Shown: positions 14,006 through 44,151 of the stretch, piece by piece | How the letters are laid out: each line of letters opens with the position of its first letter | Numbering within the stretch: position 1 is the stretch's first letter | Source: a virus | IMG/VR virus record: IMGVR_UViG_3300019776_000213 | Span: 15,767 to 79,766 of that record | Strand: one strand, 5' to 3' | DNA: 64,000 nt | Notes under the pieces: model-generated | Told to the model about the DNA's origin: nothing | What the model saw: the letters and a program-made list of their open reading frames with translations, nothing else | Database searches by the model: none | Position numbers and translations under genes: made by a program

Positions 14006-14098
14006 ATAAAAGCGGATTATTCCGCTGCATGTCAGCTCTCTCAGAGCTAATTGATACAAGTGTATTGGTATTGTAATATCACTCGTGTTCTTAAATAC

Positions 14099-14524
14099 TC
14101 AATGGTCTGTAAATAGCTTACGTCTTGATTCCATGTCTGCCAAAGCTGATTCCAACTGTTCTTTTGTGTAGGCTGGAGCGTTAGGGTCTGTTTGCAAGCT
14201 TCCTTTTGCAGACTCATTGAGTAGTGTAGGTTGTATTGCTGGCAAAGCTTCTGATACGTCTGATTTTGCTGGCAATCCCACTTTCTTGCTTGTGGTGATA
14301 GTGAGGATGACATTGACAATGGTGATAAAACCACCGCCAATAGAAATAGCCATATCTTGATCAATTGGAAGGTCATAACCAAAAGCCTTTGCAAGAGCTA
14401 CAATGGAAAGGATAATACCTGCTAAGATGTTAGCTGTAATCTGCTTATTCTTCCAGCTATCAGGGTTAGCTACTTCTTGTCCTTTGCGGAATAAATCATA
14501 AAATAGTTTTAGTTTCTCAAACAT
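14099..14524 (-). CDS. holin-like protein (2 TM)
   Basis: two TM helices; directly downstream of the endolysin. Confidence 0.6.
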   Translation of the reverse strand: MFEKLKLFYDLFRKGQEVANPDSWKNKQITANILAGIILSIVALAKAFGYDLPIDQDMAISIGGGFITIVNVILTITTSKKVGLPAKSDVSEALPAIQPTLLNESAKGSLQTDPNAPAYTKEQLESALADMESRRKLFTDH

Positions 14525-14533
14525 AATAGTTCC

Positions 14534-14977
14534 TTATTTTAATCCTTTAGAGTATGAAGCAACTCCGTTAGTGAATGTTGCTGTCAATACTTCCCTTCTT
14601 TGAGGCTTATCTGTACACAAGCCTAAGTGAATCCAATTTCCTTCGTAGATTATTTGGTGGAATTGAATATCACTCTCCACAATAGCTTTTACAATATCTT
14701 TTAACTGTAACGATGGTATTGTAAAGTCTGCTGCCAATCCAAGCTTATGAGCGCTGTTTTCAGCCCCTCCAACAGCTTTATTCAACATAGGACATCTATA
14801 CCCACTAGAGATTACCAAAGGCTTGTTAAACAGCTTTCTGACGGCTTCTAGGGTATTTGCAAGAACATATAGATTACCAAGAACACTCGGACTTGGTGTG
14901 TTGTCAATGTTGTGACGTGTTGCATACTGAGATGCTGTAAGTTCTTCAAGTGTAAAGTGTTCTGATAATTTAGTCAT
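14534..14977 (-). CDS. endolysin, peptidase M15 family
   Basis: SSGYRC..LNKAVGG..SAH..GLAAD..WIH zinc motifs. Confidence 0.9.
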   Translation of the reverse strand: MTKLSEHFTLEELTASQYATRHNIDNTPSPSVLGNLYVLANTLEAVRKLFNKPLVISSGYRCPMLNKAVGGAENSAHKLGLAADFTIPSLQLKDIVKAIVESDIQFHQIIYEGNWIHLGLCTDKPQRREVLTATFTNGVASYSKGLK

Positions 14978-15321
14978 TTCTTTATATTCTCCAACATCTT
15001 AATAATGATAGTCATCTGCTGAGTAACATTCTGCTCAAGCTTCTCCATCTTGTCACTAAGACGCTTTTCCATTGTTTCTAATTCGTGTTGATGGCGAGCT
15101 TCTATCTTAGATACTAACTTCTCATTATCTGCTCGGAGATATGTGAGTTCGTTGCTCCAGCGTTGCTCAGTTTCTTTCACACGCTCCGTATCAGCTTTAA
15201 GCTTGATAGCGTCTGATTGAGCCTTGCTCTCTTCACGTAATAATTTCCACACTACTCCTAACAGCGAACCTAGTAGTCCTAAGAAGCCTGTTAGTAGCCA
15301 CATCCAAACTTCTGTAGGCAT
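14974..15321 (-). CDS. holin/antiholin-like protein (1 TM plus coiled coil)
   Basis: N-terminal TM after an AAGGAAAG RBS; adjacent to the endolysin. Confidence 0.55.
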   Translation of the reverse strand: MPTEVWMWLLTGFLGLLGSLLGVVWKLLREESKAQSDAIKLKADTERVKETEQRWSNELTYLRADNEKLVSKIEARHQHELETMEKRLSDKMEKLEQNVTQQMTIIIKMLENIKK

Positions 15322-15695
15322 AACTTTACTTTCCTTTTTAAATAGTTTATAATTATTGGTGATACGAGAACAAAGCAAATGATCTGCATGTATTCTAAAT
15401 ACTGTGCTACAATGTAATAGGAGTCAAATCTTGGATGTATTATATTTATTATGTGGCTTATTCCAAGCATAGATGTTATACATAATAATGGAATGCTGAC
15501 GATGCTAGTCTGGTATGCGCAAATTATAACCATTGTCAGTTCAGAAGATATGCAGACAAAATTCCATAAGTAATAATTAGTTATGTAGTCAGTGGGCAGA
15601 TACCGTGTTAATGCTATTAAGAGTGCTAACATTATTGTAACAGAATCTGCCCTATTTAGATACAATGCAGCTAGAAGGATAGCTGCATAAATCAT
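15291..15695 (-). CDS. multi-pass membrane protein in the lysis operon
   Basis: about four hydrophobic helices. Confidence 0.7.
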   Translation of the reverse strand: MIYAAILLAALYLNRADSVTIMLALLIALTRYLPTDYITNYYLWNFVCISSELTMVIICAYQTSIVSIPLLCITSMLGISHIINIIHPRFDSYYIVAQYLEYMQIICFVLVSPIIINYLKRKVKLCLQKFGCGY

Positions 15696-15696
15696 A

Positions 15697-16392
15697 TTAG
15701 TTAGCTACTGGAGTTGGCGGAGGCGATTTTCCTCCTCCTGTTTGTGGCGGAGTTGGGTTTGTGATCGGATCACCTTCCGGAGCAGACATATTAAGTTTCA
15801 GCATAATTTGATTTTCCTTCTCTATATAATCACTCTCTGAAAGAGTGTGGTTGACATCTTCGATATTAAAGATGTTTGATTTCCTGATGTTATCAACAGC
15901 AGGTAAAATTTGTAAATTAAACTCGTTGTGAAGTCCACAAACTAAGTCATTAGTAATAGGCACAATATGATCTACGTGATAAGAAACACCAAGCCAAGCT
16001 TCAAACCTTTTAGCTTTACCATATACGGAATTAATATGCTCTTGATTAGCCCAACAAACCGAAGCATTTCTTTTAAGTGCTTTTCTTCTGGCATGAGCAG
16101 CATTGCAAACGTGTCTATTCTGTTTCTTGTAAAGACTCTTCTTTAACTTTATAGACTCTTTATTCTTTTCTCGGTACTTCTTAGACCTTATCTTGACATC
16201 AGCTATATTTCTGTAGTATCTTTCTTTATCCTTTTGACGTATTGTTTCTGCATTTTCAGTACGTCTGTCTCGTTCTTTTTGAGCTAAACACTCTTTACAC
16301 TCAGACCGATGTTTTCCAGATTCTTTTCTTATGCGATATTCACTCAGTTCCTTAACCCTGTGACAAATCCTACACTCCTTACAATCCCTCAT
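15697..16392 (-). CDS. HNH homing endonuclease read in frame into a Pro-rich peptide
   Basis: CxxC..CxxC N-terminus, HVDHIVP..VCGLH..NLQIL..N; unrelated C-terminal 35 aa with its own RBS. Confidence 0.8.
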   Translation of the reverse strand: MRDCKECRICHRVKELSEYRIRKESGKHRSECKECLAQKERDRRTENAETIRQKDKERYYRNIADVKIRSKKYREKNKESIKLKKSLYKKQNRHVCNAAHARRKALKRNASVCWANQEHINSVYGKAKRFEAWLGVSYHVDHIVPITNDLVCGLHNEFNLQILPAVDNIRKSNIFNIEDVNHTLSESDYIEKENQIMLKLNMSAPEGDPITNPTPPQTGGGKSPPPTPVAN

Positions 16393-17148: not shown

Positions 17149-18422
17149 TATTTCACCCTTACATAGCCGAAGTTAGGTCTTGATGGGACATTGCTTAAAG
17201 CTGCCAATGGTTGTACAAATGGAGCAGAAGACCCCGTGTACTCACTCGAAGTGAACCAGTTGTTTGCATATATCATCCTGTTACCAGCCGTACCAGTACC
17301 ATTCTGAACGAATATCATCCCTGTTCCTGCTGGAATACATGCCAAGCCAACATTAGTATTTGGTATGGTATTAGGGATAATTTGCCGAGTAGTAAACTTT
17401 TGAAAGTCTGTGGTGTATGCGAACTGGAAGGCACTGCCAGTGGTAGCTTGCCCAGTTCCTGTCCCTATAATAAATCTTGTACCGTCAAAATGGATACTAA
17501 CTTCATTCAAGAATGCAAAACTTGCAGTACTTGTACTACTTGAAGCATATAATCCCGAAGGAGTAATATTTGTCCAGCTACCAGTTGCACCCGTAGTAGA
17601 TGTATAAATCTGTGATGTAGTAGTAGCTACAAACATACCAAGACCTACTGAAAAACTTGTACATATTGCTGGCATAGTCACTGATGTCCAAGCTGTACCT
17701 ACTGCATTAGTACTCTGCAAAGCAACTGTAGAGCCTGTGCAAGTTATTAGCCAGCGTGAAGCTCCTAATGATGGTAGGTTAAGAATAATTGGCAAACCTG
17801 TTAAAGTTGTTAAGGGAACTGTTTGGGCTGTTAAAGTAACACCATCGGATGTTGTAGCTATTTGAGTGAAACCAGAATTATATCCTGATACGATAACCGC
17901 AGTAGTGCCATCCCAAGCTATTCTTGCCAAGTTAGCAGTATTCTCTGCCAAAGTTACCGTACCACCAGCAGTAAATGATGTCCCTGTTGTTGAATATGAA
18001 CATCTAATTGTTGTAGACCCTGAACCTGCTGCAAGAATGAATCTGGAACCGTTCCAGATAACAGAATAACCATTTAAGCCAGAAAGATTATGTGCTACGG
18101 TGCTCCAACTTGCACCACTATTTGTTGATACTAACACATTAACAGAATCATTATAACAAAGAACAATAGTACCAGAGCCATTATTAGCACAGCCAGTAAT
18201 CTTAGCAAATGAGACTGGTAACGTCACTGTGCCAGCTCCATGCACCATAATTGTTTCAACCCCCGCTGTCAGTGGGTATGTACTAGTAAGTGCAACTACA
18301 CCACTTCGCAAGAATACACTACCATCTGCACGATTAATTGTCGTACCTGAATCTGGAAAATATGTGGCATCACCTATAAGAAATCCACCACCAGACATAA
18401 ATTGATTAATATTACTCATACT
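17148..18422 (-). CDS. tail fibre / receptor-binding protein with BNR-like beta-propeller repeats
   Basis: SxNxGxxW / SxxGxxF repeats, Ser/Thr/Gly rich; position. Confidence 0.75.
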   Translation of the reverse strand, partial: SMSNINQFMSGGGFLIGDATYFPDSGTTINRADGSVFLRSGVVALTSTYPLTAGVETIMVHGAGTVTLPVSFAKITGCANNGSGTIVLCYNDSVNVLVSTNSGASWSTVAHNLSGLNGYSVIWNGSRFILAAGSGSTTIRCSYSTTGTSFTAGGTVTLAENTANLARIAWDGTTAVIVSGYNSGFTQIATTSDGVTLTAQTVPLTTLTGLPIILNLPSLGASRWLITCTGSTVALQSTNAVGTAWTSVTMPAICTSFSVGLGMFVATTTSQIYTSTTGATGSWTNITPSGLYASSSTSTASFAFLNEVSIHFDGTRFIIGTGTGQATTGSAFQFAYTTDFQKFTTRQIIPNTIPNTNVGLACIPAGTGMIFVQNGTGTAGNRMIYANNWFTSSEYTGSSAPFVQPLAALSNVPSRPNFGYVRVK

Positions 18423-19096
18423 AAAGCCCACCCCCTTGTTCCACCAACATACAACAACTCAAAAGAGATGTTCTTATTTGGCACTAGCATATTTTCTAAA
18501 ACACCTTCGATTGGAATACCACCAGAAACATTTACTGTTAAATTGGCTGCACCGAAGTTCCCATATAAATCTTTGAAAGCAATCTTTGATTGATTCTGTA
18601 CCAAGAATGTACTTGGCAGTGTAATAACTACTGCAACTGAAGTTGTATCAATTAGTAGATTATCACCAGCAACTGCTGTATAATTATTATTCACTACAAA
18701 CCAAGCGGCATTTACTTGCAATAATGTCCAATTTGTAGGATCATTCTTAGGGTCAGTGGTAGATGAGCTTGATGCAGTAGTTTTGCGATAAGTTTGAAAA
18801 TTTATCAAGCTGATTGCATTTGAATATTGAGCATACACTTGCCCACTTACCCAAGGAGCTGCATTGGCTGTAGCTACTACAGTATTCTTAGAGTTTACTG
18901 CATCTGTAGCTGCTGCTTGAGCTATACTAGCATTTGTAGCGGTTGTTGCAGAAGCTGTGTTAATTTCTCCTGCCACTGTATTAATTTGTGTTACCATTGG
19001 TGGAAGAGCTGCTACAAATGTATCAGATGTTGTTACAAATGTAGGAGCATCCATCGTCCTAGCCGGAGCTGGAGGTAGAGCTGTAATTGTTGTCAT
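18416..19096 (-). CDS. tail fibre proximal/adaptor protein
   Basis: ITALPPAPAR N-terminus, Ala-rich linker, WVSG..Y..DPxxDPTNW module, T4-fibre-like C-terminal repeat. Confidence 0.7.
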   Translation of the reverse strand: MTTITALPPAPARTMDAPTFVTTSDTFVAALPPMVTQINTVAGEINTASATTATNASIAQAAATDAVNSKNTVVATANAAPWVSGQVYAQYSNAISLINFQTYRKTTASSSSTTDPKNDPTNWTLLQVNAAWFVVNNNYTAVAGDNLLIDTTSVAVVITLPSTFLVQNQSKIAFKDLYGNFGAANLTVNVSGGIPIEGVLENMLVPNKNISFELLYVGGTRGWALV

Positions 19097-28068: not shown

Positions 28069-29244
28069 TTATGCTACTCGTTTATATAATGTTGTATATC
28101 CATAGCCACTATCAAGTTGTTTCCAGTTATCAATGATATAAACTGGTATAGATAATGTAGAAGTGGTTGAAGATACTGTCTCAGCATTTGTAACAAGATA
28201 ACCATTTGTTGATGTAAATGCTGGAGCACTTCCTACATTAACTGTTGCACCAAGGTTAAAGGTTGGTACGTTGTCAGTTCCTGTAAAGGTATATAGGCTT
28301 GCAGAAGTGTTGGTGTATAGAACACAAGAGCCATTAATGACAACTTTAGAACCTGTAGTATCTAATCCTGCAACTGGAAACGAAGCTCCATATTTCAATG
28401 TGACAGCTACACTAAAATTTACGGCATTATCTATGCTGACTTTATAACTAGTGCCATTTAAGCAATAGAGATTAGTACCATCAGAGTATATCCAATTCCC
28501 AAAGTTTGCAGAGCCATTTTGTAATGCCCAAGTAGCGCCATCAGACGTTACATAAATGAAACCATCAGTTCCTAGTGCGTAAAATGACGTTGTAGGAGCA
28601 TGATAAGTAATATCTTGGAAATGTATTGGAGTTGCTACTTCTACCCAACTATTCGCATTAGACGTTACATAAGCCACAGGAGAGTTTGATACAGTTGCCA
28701 TTGTGACAGCAATACCTTTACCATTTCCTTCTGTGTATTGCATTCTTGCTATACTACTTGGTTGTGTGGTGTGAGTACCAGATATGAACCATCCAATACC
28801 TGTATTAGATACCCATCTTCCATTTGTTCCAAAAGCTATGTATTTAGAAAATAGCTTAGAATAAAACATTGAATCTGGTTTAGACCAAGTACCACTGTTA
28901 GTAGCATTACCTGCTGCAACAATTGTTACACCGCCGTCATCTGAGTATGAGAATACATTACCAGTTGTTCCTACTATGCGACTTGCAAAGTTTCCAGTTT
29001 TCCAAATTGTGTCTGGGCTAGAGCTTAATACGCTAGTTGTAGGATAGCTTGCAATAGCTGTAGCAGAAGATGGATACACTGCTGCTAAAGTGACTACACC
29101 AGTTTTAAGATACTTGTACGTACCTTCTGTAAGCATTGGTTGACCGTACAATGACCCTATGATAAAAGAATCAATGGGTGTAGGAGCTGAGCCGGTGTTG
29201 CCAACTCCGCCAGAAGAAACTTGCTGCGGGTATACATTTATCAT
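28069..29244 (-). CDS. second fibre-like beta-propeller protein
   Basis: SDDGG, TSDGATW and SIDNA repeats; shares termini motifs with 17148..18422. Confidence 0.65.
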   Translation of the reverse strand: MINVYPQQVSSGGVGNTGSAPTPIDSFIIGSLYGQPMLTEGTYKYLKTGVVTLAAVYPSSATAIASYPTTSVLSSSPDTIWKTGNFASRIVGTTGNVFSYSDDGGVTIVAAGNATNSGTWSKPDSMFYSKLFSKYIAFGTNGRWVSNTGIGWFISGTHTTQPSSIARMQYTEGNGKGIAVTMATVSNSPVAYVTSNANSWVEVATPIHFQDITYHAPTTSFYALGTDGFIYVTSDGATWALQNGSANFGNWIYSDGTNLYCLNGTSYKVSIDNAVNFSVAVTLKYGASFPVAGLDTTGSKVVINGSCVLYTNTSASLYTFTGTDNVPTFNLGATVNVGSAPAFTSTNGYLVTNAETVSSTTSTLSIPVYIIDNWKQLDSGYGYTTLYKRVA

Positions 29245-31989: not shown

Positions 31990-32484
31990 TTATTTAGAAT
32001 GATATTTTTCAGCGAGTTTTGCTTCAAGCGAACTCTGCGTATCTTCTACTTTGGACAAATCCACATCACCAGTGATACCAGCTTCTGTGAACATTGGAGA
32101 TGCTGCTTCTTTCTCCATCGAGACAGCCATTGCTCCAACAATAGCTTCAAACTGTGCATCAGCAAGACCTTCAGTAGCTTCCAATAGAGCATCTGCTTTA
32201 CCAGTGCCAACTGCTGCTACAATCTTTTCTTTACGTGCTGCCAACTCTTTTTCTTTTGCTTGTGTTGCAAGCAACTGCTTAGCTTCTTCAGATTTATCTA
32301 AAGCTGCTTTGATCACTTCATAATCAGCAGAAAGTTTTGTGTATTTATCAGAAAGTTCTTGGAAGATACCTACTTGGTCTTCTAAGGATTTCTTGGTAGC
32401 TACAAGTTGATCGGAGAGTTCTGCTGCTGACATCTCTACATCACCTTGGTTGCTTTTCATAAATTTTTGGATGCCTTTAAGCAT
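31990..32484 (-). CDS. scaffolding protein
   Basis: Ala/Glu/Lys coiled coil between protease and decoration genes. Confidence 0.7.
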   Translation of the reverse strand: MLKGIQKFMKSNQGDVEMSAAELSDQLVATKKSLEDQVGIFQELSDKYTKLSADYEVIKAALDKSEEAKQLLATQAKEKELAARKEKIVAAVGTGKADALLEATEGLADAQFEAIVGAMAVSMEKEAASPMFTEAGITGDVDLSKVEDTQSSLEAKLAEKYHSK

Positions 32485-33362
32485 TACATACTCCCTTTAT
32501 TTTGTGAAACTACATATTTTACAAACTCTCGATTAGTCATAACCCCACTAACCAATTCATTGCTGAGAGATTGATCAGCATCAAATGTTGCTGCTTCAAA
32601 ACCTCGAATGATCTTCGCATCAAGTCCAGTGTACTTAGCAACATGCTCTACAAAAGAATTGTTCATTTTATCAACACTATCTTGAATTTCTTGCAAGAAC
32701 TCTTTCTTGAAAGCTCCAGATTCATCGAATGGTACTTTGTTAGCGCCAGAGGTAATATAGATACGTTTATATCCTTCTTCTTTATCATGTTCGCTCGTAT
32801 CTAACAGAGCTACTACACAACCAATGCTTCCTGCACAAGCTGTAGGATTGATGTATAATTCGTCGCACACACATGCAATTGCATAAGCTGCTGAGCAGGC
32901 AATTTCATCAATGTAGCCAATTAGCTTTACTCCAGCTTCATCACACATTGCACGAATGTTATTGGCTGTCTCAAAACAGTGTGCCGCCGAGCCGCCGCCA
33001 GAACTGAAATTGAGAATGATAGTTGTGTTACCATCTTCAATAGCTTCTTCAACGTCTTCTTCAAGTTGCTGATAAGAAGTACCAACTAATCCGCACATCG
33101 TCATAACTGGTTTGTACGTCAGACTGCCACAAACTTCAATCACTGTAACTGGAAGTGGAGACTCATCAAAGTCATCCATATCATCAGGTTCTTCTTCCTC
33201 ATCCTCTTGTTCTTGTGGCATATCTGCTTGAGGAACTAGGAGTTGAAGTCCTTCATTCCTCTTTTGTAGATAGCTAAGAATAGTTTCAAAAGATTGTGTA
33301 TCAATCAGTTGTGGTGTGTTATACAAACTTGATGTAAGCCTTATTAGGCTATGATTTATCAT
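32484..33362 (-). CDS. prohead protease, peptidase S49
   Basis: SSGGGSA, ACSAAYAIA, GSIG motifs. Confidence 0.9.
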   Translation of the reverse strand: MINHSLIRLTSSLYNTPQLIDTQSFETILSYLQKRNEGLQLLVPQADMPQEQEDEEEEPDDMDDFDESPLPVTVIEVCGSLTYKPVMTMCGLVGTSYQQLEEDVEEAIEDGNTTIILNFSSGGGSAAHCFETANNIRAMCDEAGVKLIGYIDEIACSAAYAIACVCDELYINPTACAGSIGCVVALLDTSEHDKEEGYKRIYITSGANKVPFDESGAFKKEFLQEIQDSVDKMNNSFVEHVAKYTGLDAKIIRGFEAATFDADQSLSNELVSGVMTNREFVKYVVSQNKGSM

Positions 33363-37736: not shown

Positions 37737-37812
37737 TGGAGCGACGTGTCGGAGTCGAACCGACGACATATAGATTGGAAATCTATCGTTCTTCCAACTG
37801 AACTAACATCGC
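37737..37812 (-). tRNA. tRNA-Gly(TCC)
   Basis: 76-nt cloverleaf, GCGATGT/ACGTCGC acceptor stem, U73, encoded CCA, anticodon loop TTTCCAA, GTTCGAC T-loop. Confidence 0.93.
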
Positions 37813-40900: not shown

Positions 40901-41659
40901 ATGACAAACAAAGAGAAATATGAAGGTGCACGATTTGAAAGTAAATCTTATGGATGGTACACTGTTATTGAATATAATAACTCTATCGATATAACAGTTA
41001 AATTTGATACAGGCTTTATAAAGAAATGTGCGTTAAAAGAAATGTTATCTGGTGGTATTAAAGACCCAACTGTCCCAAATGTTTATGGAGTTGGGTTTAT
41101 TGGAGCTGGTAAATATACTTCACAAATTGTTAGAGGAAACAATAATCCGTGTTATGACTCTTGGAAGGACATGTTAAAGAGGTGCTATTCAGAAGATACA
41201 AGATCAAGAAAGTATTACTTCGGATGTACTGTTGACAATGAGTGGTTAAATTATCAGAACTTTGCAGAATGGTATTACTCTAATATTAAATGTAGTGGTA
41301 GAGTAGAAGTAGATAAAGACCTATTAATAAAAGGAAATAAAATATATTCAGCAAAGACATGTTCTCTGGTTCCACAACAAATCAATACATTATTCTCAGG
41401 AGCTGGTAAAAAGTACAGAGGTAAGTATCCTTTAGGGGTACATTTTAGTAAAGAACGCAAACAATTTGCTGCGAGACTGGAGAGAAGAGGAGAAGCAAAA
41501 ACACATTTAGGGTGGTTCACTACTGCTGAGGATGCATTTCTGTGTTATAAACATCATAAAGAGATTCATGTAAAAGAAACTGCCAATAAGTTTAAGGATA
41601 TGATATCTGAAGAAGTTTATGATGCTCTGATGAAATATGAAGTTGACATAAATGACTAA
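40901..41659 (+). CDS. HNH-like homing endonuclease with AP2-like C-terminus
   Basis: W.DML.RCY..YQNFAEW..DKDLL.KGNKIYS..TC motif. Confidence 0.8.
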   Translation: MTNKEKYEGARFESKSYGWYTVIEYNNSIDITVKFDTGFIKKCALKEMLSGGIKDPTVPNVYGVGFIGAGKYTSQIVRGNNNPCYDSWKDMLKRCYSEDTRSRKYYFGCTVDNEWLNYQNFAEWYYSNIKCSGRVEVDKDLLIKGNKIYSAKTCSLVPQQINTLFSGAGKKYRGKYPLGVHFSKERKQFAARLERRGEAKTHLGWFTTAEDAFLCYKHHKEIHVKETANKFKDMISEEVYDALMKYEVDIND

Positions 41660-41672
41660 GAGGGAGACCAAT

Positions 41673-42308
41673 ATGAAGAAATACCACTCCGATGAAGAAA
41701 ACTTTAAAGATGAAAATCTATTTAAAGTTACTGCAAAGCCAATGACAACATTTTATGAGTGCAATATTGATGATGTTTTTGTTCACTCAAGTCAATTTGA
41801 TGATATTGTCTATATACTTGAAAATGCAGTAGATGGAGATATTATAAAGATGAACTTATCATCTGATGGTGGTTCATTGGTAGCAGTACTTCCTGTACTT
41901 GGTGCAATGGAGAAAACTAAAGCTCATGTACATTGTCATATTGTATCAGATATTGCTTCTGCTTGTACATTTCTACCAATGTATGCTGGTTCTGTAGATA
42001 TCAATAACTACGTATCAGTAATGTTCCACAATGTTCACTATGTTACTGCTGGAACAGGTCATACAGTGAAAGATTATGTAGACTACACTGATAAAGCTAC
42101 TTATAAACTTTTACATGATATGTATCACCACTTCTTTGATGAGGATGAAATAAGCAGAATTCTGCAAGGAAAGGAATACTGGATGGATTCTGAAGAGTTT
42201 ATGCTTCGTTACGAAATGATGATGGATGAACGTGAGAAGGAAATGGCAGAGTTTATGGAGGCTATTTCTGGAAAAGATAAGCCAGATGATGTAGATAAGG
42301 AAGTCTAA
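41673..42308 (+). CDS. ClpP-like protease
   Basis: SSDGGS, IASA (catalytic Ser), MFH (His), EYWM. Confidence 0.8.
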   Translation: MKKYHSDEENFKDENLFKVTAKPMTTFYECNIDDVFVHSSQFDDIVYILENAVDGDIIKMNLSSDGGSLVAVLPVLGAMEKTKAHVHCHIVSDIASACTFLPMYAGSVDINNYVSVMFHNVHYVTAGTGHTVKDYVDYTDKATYKLLHDMYHHFFDEDEISRILQGKEYWMDSEEFMLRYEMMMDEREKEMAEFMEAISGKDKPDDVDKEV

Positions 42309-42310
42309 TA

Positions 42311-42353
42311 GAAAAGCCCCTAGTCCAATTAAGGATTTAGGGGCTTTGTTTTT
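42311..42353. terminator. bidirectional terminator
   Basis: AAAAGCCCCTAG..TAGGGGCTTTGTTTTT. Confidence 0.8.
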
Positions 42354-42422: not shown

Positions 42423-42698
42423 TTACAATCTTTCAGTGATTGTTTGCTGCTTATCTATCCACTCACTAAAACCATCTATTAGGAATTTGACATGTACTTT
42501 GCCATCTTCAGATGCTAGGAAATCATTAATTTTAGATATATTTTTAGAAAAGATTACTTGTTGTGATTCATTCATTGCACTCCCTAACAATGTGAAGGTT
42601 TTAAACTTCTGTAAAGTGTGCAACACAAGATATGGGTTATGCTTTACAACTTCCGATATGAACTCAGGAGTCATTTGTTGAAGGAGTGCGGGAATCAT
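42423..42698 (-). CDS. small helical partner protein
   Basis: starts 6 nt after the stop of 42705..43883. Confidence 0.7.
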   Translation of the reverse strand: MIPALLQQMTPEFISEVVKHNPYLVLHTLQKFKTFTLLGSAMNESQQVIFSKNISKINDFLASEDGKVHVKFLIDGFSEWIDKQQTITERL

Positions 42699-42704
42699 TA
42701 TCTA

Positions 42705-43883
42705 TCAACCATTTACGCGTGTATTAGCACTTGTAGGATTGCCAGAAGCTGTCATTGTACCCAAGTTAACAATACCATTGGAAATATGTTGGTTTTGAGA
42801 AAGCAATGTACTCAAGGCAGTTGCTAGAGTTTGGTACTGCTGCTGTTGCTGAGCTTGCAATTGGTTTTGGTTAACATTCTGCGTAACATTGACTTCAATA
42901 TCACGGCTACGCGAGATAGCACGTTGTTCCAATAATGCAGATTCAGCAGTTGCCAATTGTCGATTCAAAGTTGCTTCGTATTGAGATACGATCAATGCAC
43001 GAGTACGATCACCGTCATCACGGATTGTGTTAGCCAAGCTGTAAGTGTTTTGCAGACCTGCTGTTGCTAAGTTAGCAATACCAAGATTTACACTTGCTAT
43101 GCCATTCTGTACTACATCTTGTGTAGCATTCTCGGAAGCAATAATTGTAGCAGTGGTTGTCGCAATATCTCGTGCCAAACCAGTCTGGTTACTAAGGATA
43201 TTAGAAGTTGAAGCATTGATCTGAGCATTGATGTCATTCTGTGTAGCCGCCAAAGAAAGTTGTACTTGGCTTTCAGCCAGAGGAACGGCTGATTTAATAT
43301 CACCTAACGTCTGCATAATAGCATTGTTCTGCACTTGACTCGTAACAGCATCCAAGCCAGTTTGCAATTGAGTAGGAGTAACAAAGTTACCTACGCCATC
43401 ACCATTGCCAAGCAAACCGTTGCGGTTCAGCAGAGTGCCACCTAAGATACCACCTAACAAGCCAGCACCAAGACCTGCTCCAGCTCCTGCACCAACTCCA
43501 CCACCCATGCCATAAGCTGCTGGCATACCACTGAAAATATTTAAATCTTCTACTTTGTGCGTCATTTCTTTTTCCTTTAAGGATGTGTTATATTCAGGTA
43601 CAGCCGCATGAATTTGATCATTAGGTGTAGTGACATATAACGAGGAAGTATTGCCGTTGTAAGTTACTTCGACATTACTAGGGATAGATGATGTAGCACC
43701 ATCTAGTTTGAAATATAACCTATCGCCAGCTTTTACATGCAGATGATGTAATTCTGTTTTGGCATCGTTGATATATGCTGATAAAGTTATATGTTTTGGG
43801 TATTTTACTTCTACAATTCCATCCGTTGGGATGGATACGGTGTTTGTAATGCCACCAACATTTTCAATATTTGACCACATCAA
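42705..43883 (-). CDS. Gly-rich/heptad-repeat/Q-N-rich protein with two in-frame starts (43883/43880 and 43565)
   Basis: AAGGAG RBS before the first start, AAGGAAAAAGAA before the internal ATG. Confidence 0.8.
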   Translation of the reverse strand: MMWSNIENVGGITNTVSIPTDGIVEVKYPKHITLSAYINDAKTELHHLHVKAGDRLYFKLDGATSSIPSNVEVTYNGNTSSLYVTTPNDQIHAAVPEYNTSLKEKEMTHKVEDLNIFSGMPAAYGMGGGVGAGAGAGLGAGLLGGILGGTLLNRNGLLGNGDGVGNFVTPTQLQTGLDAVTSQVQNNAIMQTLGDIKSAVPLAESQVQLSLAATQNDINAQINASTSNILSNQTGLARDIATTTATIIASENATQDVVQNGIASVNLGIANLATAGLQNTYSLANTIRDDGDRTRALIVSQYEATLNRQLATAESALLEQRAISRSRDIEVNVTQNVNQNQLQAQQQQQYQTLATALSTLLSQNQHISNGIVNLGTMTASGNPTSANTRVNG

Positions 43884-44151
43884 ATACTCCTTGGCGTATA
43901 TTGTTGTGTTGCTCGATGAGCAGAATAGATATACATGAAATATATCTGAAGGATTATCAGAATAAGCTTCTATTTTGATAACGGCATTATACAGTAATTT
44001 ATCAGAAAAGCAATAGTATTTTAATAATATTTATGTAACATTGTGTGACAATTGGTATTGAGAAGTAAGATTGAAATATTTAAAGATATTACTTGCTTTA
44101 TTTAGAAATGTGTATATAATACGGACATTAGTAAATTTAAGGAGAAATAAA

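What the first reader, a model, noticed from the sequence alone, without database searches (positions are those of the whole stretch)
42423..44013. Inverted two-gene cassette encoding a fusogen- or amyloid-like protein and a partner
The cassette has its own promoter (TTGCTT-16-TATAAT, 44013-43986) and terminator and runs opposite to its neighbours. The main 286-aa product has a hydrophobic Gly zipper (GGGVGAGAGAGLGAGLLGGILGGTLL), long Asn/Gln/Thr heptads, IRDDGDRTRALI, and a Q/N-rich tail (VNVTQNVNQNQLQAQQQQQ). This order resembles class I fusion proteins or pore-forming/self-assembling fibres. A 91-aa helical gene follows, a possible chaperone or immunity protein. Function is unknown; candidate roles are a membrane-active system, superinfection exclusion, or a spanin substitute.
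Basis: partly seen in the sequence, partly recalled or inferred. Interest (0 to 1): 0.76.

Follow-up and report, generated by a model that had tools for sequence, protein, structure and literature searches.

The report
Mobile phage glycine-zipper rod gene pair
A phage carries a movable two-gene module of unknown family: one gene makes two nested versions of a protein with a glycine-rich hydrophobic segment and a very long helix, and a small partner gene travels with the longer version; it probably acts at the host cell envelope, but this is unproven.

Summary
The cassette is real, but the main ORF is 391 aa, not 286. That Met is conserved in at least 90% of relatives. A Shine-Dalgarno-like motif precedes it in 8 of 8 N-extended lineages, against 5% of internal ATGs.

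AlphaFold layout:
- Ig-like beta-sandwich, residues 1-87.
- Low-confidence linker plus glycine zipper, about 123-158.
- One continuous helix, 169-362.
- Q-run and conserved tail.

The family has 351 representatives at 50% clustering and matches no Pfam, PHROG, NCBIfam, PADLOC or PDB family. Motif scans of 185,579 prokaryote genomes found none. The 91-aa partner is also a real family. It lies 3' of the main gene in 28 of 63 loci and tracks the N-terminal extension (Ig type 8/8, no extension 2/18).

In two syntenic relatives the pair sits directly after the lysis cassette. Here it has moved 28 kb away, inverted, with a convincing terminator and a candidate promoter no better than chance.

Best reading (0.38): an accessory protein anchored by the glycine zipper that spans the envelope late in infection, with the long isoform and partner as modulators. 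Main rival (0.27): a virion accessory fibre with a chaperone. Other first-stage readers of the same DNA also noted the two starts.

The parts
43986..44013 (-).
   Evidence: Read. The -10 hexamer is perfect; the -35 matches 3 of 6. It falls below the scan threshold, and such sites are not enriched here.
44024..44051 (-). Alternative promoter-like site TTGTCA-N16-TATTAT
   Evidence: 10 of 12 matches.
43887..43892 (-). Shine-Dalgarno AAGGAG for the long isoform
   Evidence: It lies 6 nt before ATG 43880.
42705..43880 (-). Long isoform CDS, 391 aa (P0001), stop codon included
   Evidence: Homologues align over residues 1-390. 72 of 264 collected relatives carry the same N-domain.
43620..43880 (-). 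N-terminal Ig-like beta-sandwich, residues 1-87
   Evidence: pLDDT is 87-98 in the full model. Modelled alone it gives pTM 0.73. VIA-align gives Z 6-8.7 to PapD/MSP/ASH-like and S-layer Ig domains. BFVD matches to Hoc-like and tail-collar proteins give TMq 0.5-0.69.
43573..43577 (-). Internal Shine-Dalgarno-like AAGGA
   Evidence: An SD-like motif lies in the 15 nt before the conserved in-frame ATG in 8 of 8 extended lineages, against a 5% background.
42705..43565 (-). Short isoform CDS from M106, 286 aa: the family core
   Evidence: This column is Met in 130 of about 138 aligned relatives. It is the true start, with a stop codon just upstream, in L002, L006-L013 and L024.
43428..43505 (-). 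Glycine zipper, residues 126-151; the hydrophobic G/A/L/I run spans about 123-158
   Evidence: Best 19-residue Kyte-Doolittle mean is 1.52; the family median is 1.59. It is the most conserved part of the protein, up to about 4 bits per column at the conserved Gly and Leu positions. AlphaFold gives pLDDT below 50 and no helix here.
42795..43376 (-). Long helix, residues 169-362 (about 29 nm if straight)
   Evidence: one DSSP helix, pLDDT above 90 for residues 180-329. Composition is 27% N+Q+R and 12% charged.
42999..43016 (-). Conserved DGD(K/R)TR motif, residues 289-294, inside the helix; possible hinge
   Evidence: Conservation. The hinge role is inference.
42831..42896 (-). E-V-N-V-T-Q-N-V-N-Q then Q-run, residues 329-350, with conservation at every second residue
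   Evidence: Q342, Q344, Q346 and Q348 are nearly invariant. pLDDT falls to 57-74.
42708..42794 (-). Conserved C-terminal tail, residues 363-391 (N-x-G ... A-N-T-R-V)
   Evidence: pLDDT is below 50.
42423..42698 (-). Partner CDS, 91 aa (P0002); no Cys, no hydrophobic segment
   Evidence: The family was detected by an iterated profile in 28 of 63 loci, always 3' of the main gene.
42307..42347 (.). Hairpin plus U-run between the convergent genes; probable bidirectional intrinsic terminator
   Evidence: z -2.9; sequence.

Best explanation
Shown:
- This is a movable, virus-only two-gene accessory module.
- Gene 1 is nested. The full frame gives a 391-aa protein: Ig-like domain, linker, glycine zipper, helix of about 190 residues, Q-run and tail.
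- A conserved internal ribosome-binding site and ATG give the 286-aa core. That core is the whole protein in many relatives.
- Gene 2 is a small, presumably soluble protein that co-occurs with the N-terminal extension, not with the core.

Inferred:
- Late in infection the core oligomerises through its highly conserved glycine zipper in the host inner membrane.
- It projects a low-charge, N/Q/T-rich rod of about 25-30 nm into or across the periplasm. The conserved C-terminal tail contacts the wall or outer membrane.
- The long isoform keeps a folded domain on the cytoplasmic side. With the partner, it modulates assembly of the core, following the logic of holin/antiholin pairs.
- The envelope event it serves is unresolved: lysis timing or completion, or exclusion of superinfecting phage.
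For: Architecture:
- AlphaFold model.
- The zipper is the best-conserved element.
- It is as hydrophobic as the accepted N-terminal zipper of phiX174 H (Kyte-Doolittle 1.52 against 1.40).

Nested starts:
-.

Partner and N-extension:
- Partner present in 8/8 Ig-type lineages, 8/9 with the helical HE-motif extension, 5/12 with other extensions and 2/18 with none. Fisher p = 6e-5, not corrected for phylogeny.
- Partner length also differs by type: 83-119 aa with the Ig type, mostly 50-73 aa with the helical type.

Accessory and mobile:
- L026 and L033 are collinear with this genome from tape measure to lysis cassette. They carry the gene directly after holin/endolysin (L026) or after the spanins (L033). 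Here that slot is empty and the pair lies at 42.4-43.9 kb, inverted.
- Lysis genes lie within 1-4 kb in L002, L019, L042/L045 and L044.
- The family occurs in phages of different tail types and sizes, on contigs up to 219 kb.
- None was found in 185,579 prokaryote genomes by motif scan.
- HNH endonuclease genes are frequent neighbours.
Against: - No topology, localisation or expression data exist.
- AlphaFold gives no helix and pLDDT below 50 for the zipper.
- 9-10 of its 19 core residues are Gly.
- The flanks do not obey the positive-inside rule for an N-in orientation: the N flank is acidic and an Arg follows the zipper.
- Low charge (12.8%) and 55% N/Q/S/T/G/A put the protein among this phage's tail-fibre-like proteins, not typical periplasmic coiled coils.
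- Tail-fibre families are the commonest neighbours.
- In one clade the gene and partner sit inside an operon of collagen-like fibre genes.
- Rod length varies, with 20-residue repeats in some members.
- This genome already has a lysis cassette.
Confidence: 0.38

Rival explanations
1. A virion accessory fibre, like fibritin whiskers or phi29 head fibres. The rod is a fibre shaft and the conserved C-terminus is an oligomerisation cap. The N-terminal peptide, or the Ig/helical extension, docks it to the particle. Only some chains carry the Ig-like domain, as with Ig domains added to phage structural proteins by frameshifting. The partner is a downstream fibre chaperone or docking adaptor.
For: - Composition clusters with this phage's tail-fibre-like proteins.
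- Tail-fibre PHROGs are the top neighbours.
- The gene is embedded among collagen-like and fibre-like genes in L004-L019, L023 and L045.
- PhiPLPE gp38 is annotated as a putative tail fibre next to gp36.
- The N-domain's best viral fold matches are Hoc-like and tail-collar proteins.
- The centre varies in length and has repeats, while both ends are conserved.
- A small gene immediately 3' fits the chaperone pattern.
Against: - A conserved hydrophobic run of 25-35 residues would be solvent-exposed on a particle.
- No hit to any tail-fibre or structural family.
- The gene moves between genome positions and between phage morphotypes, and is absent from the other PhiPLPE-like phages held in the phage collection.
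- In L033 and L026 it is separated from the fibre genes by the whole lysis cassette.
- The PhiPLPE record marks gp34 and gp35, but not gp38, as confirmed by MS.
Confidence: 0.27
2. A virion-borne ejection or pilot protein that works like phiX174 protein H. It would be stored inside the particle. On infection the glycine zipper would insert in the membrane and the N/Q/R-rich helices would assemble into a tube across the envelope.
For: - Same order of parts as H (N-terminal Gly zipper, G/N-rich linker, long amide-rich helix).
- Zipper Kyte-Doolittle 1.52 against 1.40; helix N+Q+R 27% against 30%.
- The H tube is a decamer of helices, 170 A long, lined by N, Q and R (PMC7354561).
Against: - No homology: hhalign probability 0.2%, and no Pfam hit.
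- This phage has a 1772-aa tape measure protein, which normally does this job.
- An Ig-like domain on an internal protein would be odd.
- The gene is accessory and mobile.
Confidence: 0.1
3. A one-piece spanin substitute. It would be anchored in the inner membrane, span the periplasm, and use its C-terminus on the outer membrane to complete lysis.
For: - No convincing lipobox o-spanin ORF in the 79.8-kb genome.
- In L026 the gene follows endolysin and holin, the usual spanin position.
- The rod is long enough to cross the periplasm.
Against: - L033 has an i-spanin and a candidate embedded Pro-rich o-spanin (judged by eye, with an atypical lipobox), and still carries the gene just downstream.
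- At2 has an i-spanin-like gene as well.
- The partner has no Cys and so is not a lipoprotein.
- Here the gene lies 28 kb from the endolysin.
Confidence: 0.07
4. A class I-type fusogen or a functional amyloid.
For: - A hydrophobic Gly-rich segment is followed by long helices.
- The Q/N-rich stretch has conservation at every second residue, 342-348.
Against: - There is only one hydrophobic segment and no C-terminal anchor.
- Tailed phages have no envelope.
- Fusion-protein fold hits fall on the Ig-like domain only.
- There is no signal peptide and no curli-type repeats.
- The region is modelled as a helix.
Confidence: 0.03

Closest known systems
phiX174 DNA pilot protein H (Microviridae; PDB 4JPP tube)
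   Same: - A glycine zipper near the N-terminus, then a G/N-rich linker, then a long helix.
- About 27-30% N+Q+R in the helix.
- Similar zipper hydrophobicity (PMC7354561).
   Different: - No sequence or profile similarity.
- The host virus is a tailed dsDNA phage with a tape measure protein.
- Half the charge density of H.
- A nested second isoform and a partner gene.
- No evidence that it is in virions.
Dual-start holin/antiholin pairs (lambda S105/S107) and T4 holin T with its cytoplasmic antiholin RIII
   Same: - Two in-frame starts in a gene for a protein with a hydrophobic segment.
- A position next to lysis genes in relatives.
- A small soluble partner that could bind the cytoplasmic end. 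The comparison with T and RIII rests on general knowledge.
   Different: - The starts are 105 codons apart, not 2-3.
- The extra piece is a folded domain.
- There is no homology.
- The extramembrane part is a 190-residue rod.
- The window has other holin candidates beside its endolysin.
Two-component spanins (Rz/Rz1)
   Same: An N-terminal hydrophobic anchor followed by a long helical region that could span the periplasm. The slot after holin and endolysin in L026.
   Different: - The partner is not a lipoprotein.
- The gene coexists with an i-spanin and a candidate o-spanin in L033.
- Low charge.
- No spanin family hit.
T4 fibritin / phi29 head fibres; Ig-like domains on phage structural proteins
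   Same: - An elongated helical shaft with conserved ends and a variable middle.
- An Ig-like domain carried by only some of the chains.
- Neighbourhood of fibre genes.
   Different: - A hydrophobic glycine zipper.
- No homology.
- Not in a fixed structural position.
- The Ig domain is added by an upstream start, not by a frameshift.

Membership tests
Class I viral fusion proteins | Fusion peptide plus a separate C-terminal membrane anchor, in an enveloped virus | tested here: not met
   There is only one hydrophobic segment, residues 123-158. The virus is a tailed phage.
Class I viral fusion proteins | Two heptad-repeat regions that form a six-helix bundle | tested here: inconclusive
   No 3.5-residue periodicity. 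The test also fails on a solved coiled-coil tube.
Spanins (i-spanin with o-spanin) | The partner is an outer-membrane lipoprotein with a lipobox Cys | tested here: not met
   The partner has no Cys and no signal-like segment.
Spanins (i-spanin with o-spanin) | N-terminal transmembrane domain plus a periplasmic coiled coil | tested here: inconclusive
   Kyte-Doolittle 1.52 and a long helix, but the zipper has pLDDT below 50 and topology is unknown.
Spanins (i-spanin with o-spanin) | Serves as the phage's spanin, so it should not coexist with another pair | tested here: not met
   L033 carries an i-spanin and a candidate embedded o-spanin just upstream of its copy.
Holins with dual start | Two in-frame starts giving holin and antiholin | tested here: met
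   A conserved internal SD and ATG. The spacing, 105 codons, is unlike known cases.
Holins with dual start | Membership of a described holin family, or adjacency to the endolysin | tested here: inconclusive
   No PHROG or Pfam holin hit. Here the gene is 28 kb from the endolysin, but it is adjacent to lysis genes in L026 and L033.
Microvirus pilot protein H | Sequence or profile homology | tested here: not met
   hhalign probability 0.2%. No Pfam match at E up to 1.
Microvirus pilot protein H | N-terminal glycine zipper followed by an amide-rich long helix | tested here: met
   Kyte-Doolittle 1.52 against 1.40; N+Q+R 27% against 30%.
Microvirus pilot protein H | Packaged in the virion and ejected; forms a hollow decameric tube | not testable with these tools
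   No multimer modelling or proteomics was available.
Phage tail fibre / fibritin-like proteins | Match to a fibre family or fold | tested here: inconclusive
   No PHROG, Pfam or PDB hit for the core. Composition and neighbours are fibre-like.
Tail fibre assembly chaperones (for the partner) | Match to a Tfa/gp38/gp57-type family | tested here: inconclusive
   No PHROG or PDB match for the partner alignment. Its position 3' of the main gene fits.
Ig-like (PapD/MSP/ASH-type) beta-sandwich (N-domain) | Seven-stranded sandwich superposable on members | tested here: met
   Z 8.7-6 over 76-97 residues, rmsd 2.1-5. This is a fold-level match only and implies no function.

The most novel reading that the evidence does not exclude
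Tailed phages carry a previously unrecognised class of envelope-spanning device. It would be a helical rod or tube, oligomerised by a glycine zipper and rich in amide side chains, evolved convergently with the phiX174 H tube. It would be made as two nested isoforms whose N-terminal module co-evolves with a small cytoplasmic partner. It could act as a periplasm-to-cytoplasm sensor or gate, for example coupling superinfection or envelope state to lysis timing. That would be neither a holin, a spanin nor a fibre.
Probability: 0.18. Interest if true: 0.85.

Novelty: new variant of a known kind. Interest (0 to 1): 0.6.

Why it matters
The family is large: 351 clusters at 50% identity. It was seen only in viral sequences and is entirely unannotated. 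Its design is unusual and conserved, with nested isoforms and a partner that tracks one isoform.

If it acts at the envelope, it adds a new component to phage lysis or exclusion biology in environmental, probably aquatic, phages. It would also be a second, independent example of the glycine-zipper-plus-amide-rich-helix layout known from phiX174 H. If it is a fibre, it is a new way of displaying an Ig-like domain on only some subunits. Either way, two profiles (core and partner) can now annotate hundreds of 'hypothetical' phage genes.

Tried and rejected
Family, sequence and fold searches of the main protein:
- Pfam, PHROG, NCBIfam and PADLOC scans of the main protein, its relatives and the partner gave nothing above noise.
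- PDB sequence search with profiles gave nothing.
- Foldseek with the full model matched only the Ig-like N-domain. The alphavirus E1 hits are its Ig-like domain III and are no evidence for a fusogen.
- The ESM Atlas returned only unnamed viral clusters.
- hhalign against phiX174 H found no homology.

Periodicity and fused forms:
- Heptad and hendecad periodicity showed no signal, but the positive control fails too, so I dropped it as evidence.
- A search for longer fused forms found none, which is weak evidence.

Partner search:
- The word-index search for the partner found only one relative. That proved to be a sensitivity limit: local profile iteration found 28.

Searches of genomes and sequencing runs:
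- Motif scans of prokaryote genomes found none. The first alignment was too diverse to scan.
- The metagenome scan added two loci.
- No sequencing run was listed, so no RNA holder is known.

Promoter and lipobox checks:
- A search for a promoter motif shared with other genes of this genome found none.
- A lipobox scan found no credible o-spanin.

Literature:
- Nothing is held on KLER1-1.
- Comeau 2012 does not discuss gp38.
- No paper links a glycine zipper and coiled coil to phage exclusion.

Full report
**What is there**

The window is 15767-79766 of a complete 79,766-bp virus record with terminal repeats. The phage has:
- a large terminase, a portal, a prohead protease and a major head protein;
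- a major tail protein and a 1772-aa tape measure protein.

On the minus strand, between plus-strand blocks, lie two ORFs 6 nt apart: 42705-43880 and 42423-42698. A GC-rich hairpin with a U-run lies about 75 nt after the second ORF (z -2.9).

Promoter-like sites are no commoner here than in shuffles.

**The main gene is nested**

The frame opens at ATG 43880, behind AAGGAG, and gives 391 aa.

Evidence that the long form is real:
- Many relatives align from residue 1.
- 72 of 264 collected members carry the same N-domain.

Evidence that M106 is also a start:
- The column is Met in at least 90% of relatives.
- It is the first codon after a stop in the short forms (L002, L006-L013, L024).
- In 8 of 8 extended lineages examined first, an SD-like motif precedes it. 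Only 5% of internal in-frame ATGs in these loci have one.
- The pattern holds for most of 63 loci.

Three N-terminal designs exist:
- the Ig-like domain;
- a helical extension with an H-E-x-x-S-x-x-R motif;
- none.

**Structure**

AlphaFold2 with 142 sequences gives:
- residues 1-87, a beta-sandwich (block-mean pLDDT 87-98);
- residues 88-165, low confidence, including the zipper;
- residues 169-362, one helix (pLDDT above 90 for 180-329);
- residues 363-391, disordered.

The N-domain alone (pTM 0.73) is a generic Ig-like sandwich. It is nearest to PapD/MSP/ASH and S-layer domains (Z 6-8.7), and to domains of Hoc-like and tail-collar phage proteins.

The zipper is the most conserved element. 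Its Kyte-Doolittle mean is 1.52, against a family median of 1.59. The flanks do not favour an N-in orientation.

Residues 329-350 show conservation at every second position and lower confidence. They may not be helical. Some relatives expand the middle with repeats of about 20 residues.

**Family**

- There are 351 representatives at E up to 1e-3 among 1.84 billion.
- No family library or PDB match was found.
- Only three cultured phages carry it: PhiPLPE gp38 ('putative tail-fiber'), At2 and KLER1-1.
- Motif scans of 185,579 prokaryote genomes found none.

**Partner**

The word-index search found one relative. Local profile iteration then found the family in 28 of 63 loci. It always lies 3' of the main gene, 0-1.5 kb away, on the same strand or convergent.

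By lineage the partner is present with:

| N-terminal design | Lineages with partner |
|---|---|
| Ig type | 8/8 |
| HE-motif helical extension | 8/9 |
| Other extension | 5/12 |
| No extension | 2/18 |

Fisher p = 6e-5, uncorrected for relatedness. Partners are longer with the Ig type. So the partner goes with the long isoform's extra module, not with the core.

**Context**

- The commonest neighbours are tail-fibre families, then RNR, PhoH, HNH endonucleases and large terminase.
- In one clade the gene and partner sit within an operon of small collagen-like and fibre-like genes.
- L026 and L033 are collinear relatives of this phage. There the gene follows the lysis cassette directly.
  - In L026 the order is endolysin, two-TM holin, then the gene.
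  - In L033 the order is a 4-TM protein, a TM-plus-coiled-coil protein, a GH24 lysozyme, a holin, an i-spanin with a candidate embedded o-spanin, then the gene.
- In the window that slot is empty. The pair lies 28 kb away, inverted. The pair therefore moves as a unit.
- Lysis genes lie within 1-4 kb in four more lineages.

**Weighing the readings**

For an envelope-inserted accessory device:
- the conserved zipper;
- mobility of the pair across positions and phage types;
- the slot at the end of the lysis cassette;
- nested isoforms;
- a soluble partner tied to the N-terminal module.

For a virion fibre:
- composition like this phage's fibre proteins (12.8% charged and 55% NQSTGA, against medians of 26% and 33%);
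- fibre-gene neighbours;
- the Ig-like domain;
- variable rod length.

phiX174 H shares the layout and gross composition but shows no homology. A pure spanin role is unlikely because L033 has its own i-spanin and candidate o-spanin. I put the envelope reading at 0.38, the fibre at 0.27, an H-like pilot at 0.10 and a spanin substitute at 0.07.

**Limits**

- No expression, topology or proteomic data were available.
- Multimer modelling was not available.
- Contigs of most relatives could not be fetched.
- The lineage counts are not phylogenetically corrected.

Other first-stage readers of this same DNA also flagged the two starts. I tested that claim here and it holds.

Noticed in passing
window 14099-15695 (-): Lysis cassette: a 4-TM protein, a TM-plus-coiled-coil protein (14974-15378), an M15-type endolysin (14534-14977) and a two-TM holin-like protein (14099-14524). 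No credible lipobox o-spanin exists anywhere in the genome. An ORF overlapping the holin's 3' end in another frame (14047-14394) is also open in L026 (7530-7871), with a shared R-K-W-D-C-Q-Q motif.
   Followed up: partly
window 41652-42308 (+): A second, ClpP-like protease (phrog_1827) lies convergent with the cassette, although the head module has its own prohead protease (32484-33362). A homologue also lies next to the family member in L050.
   Followed up: partly
window 40901-41659 (+) and 15697-16392 (-): HNH/endonuclease VII-type genes are inserted between PhoH and the ClpP-like gene, and ahead of the lysis cassette. HNH genes are frequent neighbours of the family elsewhere. In L033 one sits between the main gene and its partner.
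   Followed up: partly
L004-L019, L023, L045 (e.g. L018:4073-5949): There are clusters of small (100-190 aa) collagen-like and fibre-like proteins that share a C-terminal domain. The same domain is found in window 18416-19096.
   Followed up: partly
P0165, P0216, P0102 (relatives): The middle of the rod contains tandem repeats of about 20 residues (A-L-G-V-x-V-x-K-G-x-G-D-x-x-T-Q-x-A-L), which lengthen the protein.
   Followed up: no
L061:6816-8561 / P0223: This 575-581-aa relative has a long Gly/Ser/Arg/Tyr-rich low-complexity N-terminus. It also has a duplicated A-A-L-I-A-A-L-G-N-R-N unit before the zipper.
   Followed up: no
window 28069-29244 (-): A 391-aa protein in the tail module has no PHROG match and a fibre-like composition (8.7% charged). 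It may be a sheath or a large tail tube protein, so the morphotype is not settled.
   Followed up: no
window 37737-37812 (-): A single tRNA-Gly (TCC) gene lies in the phage genome.
   Followed up: no
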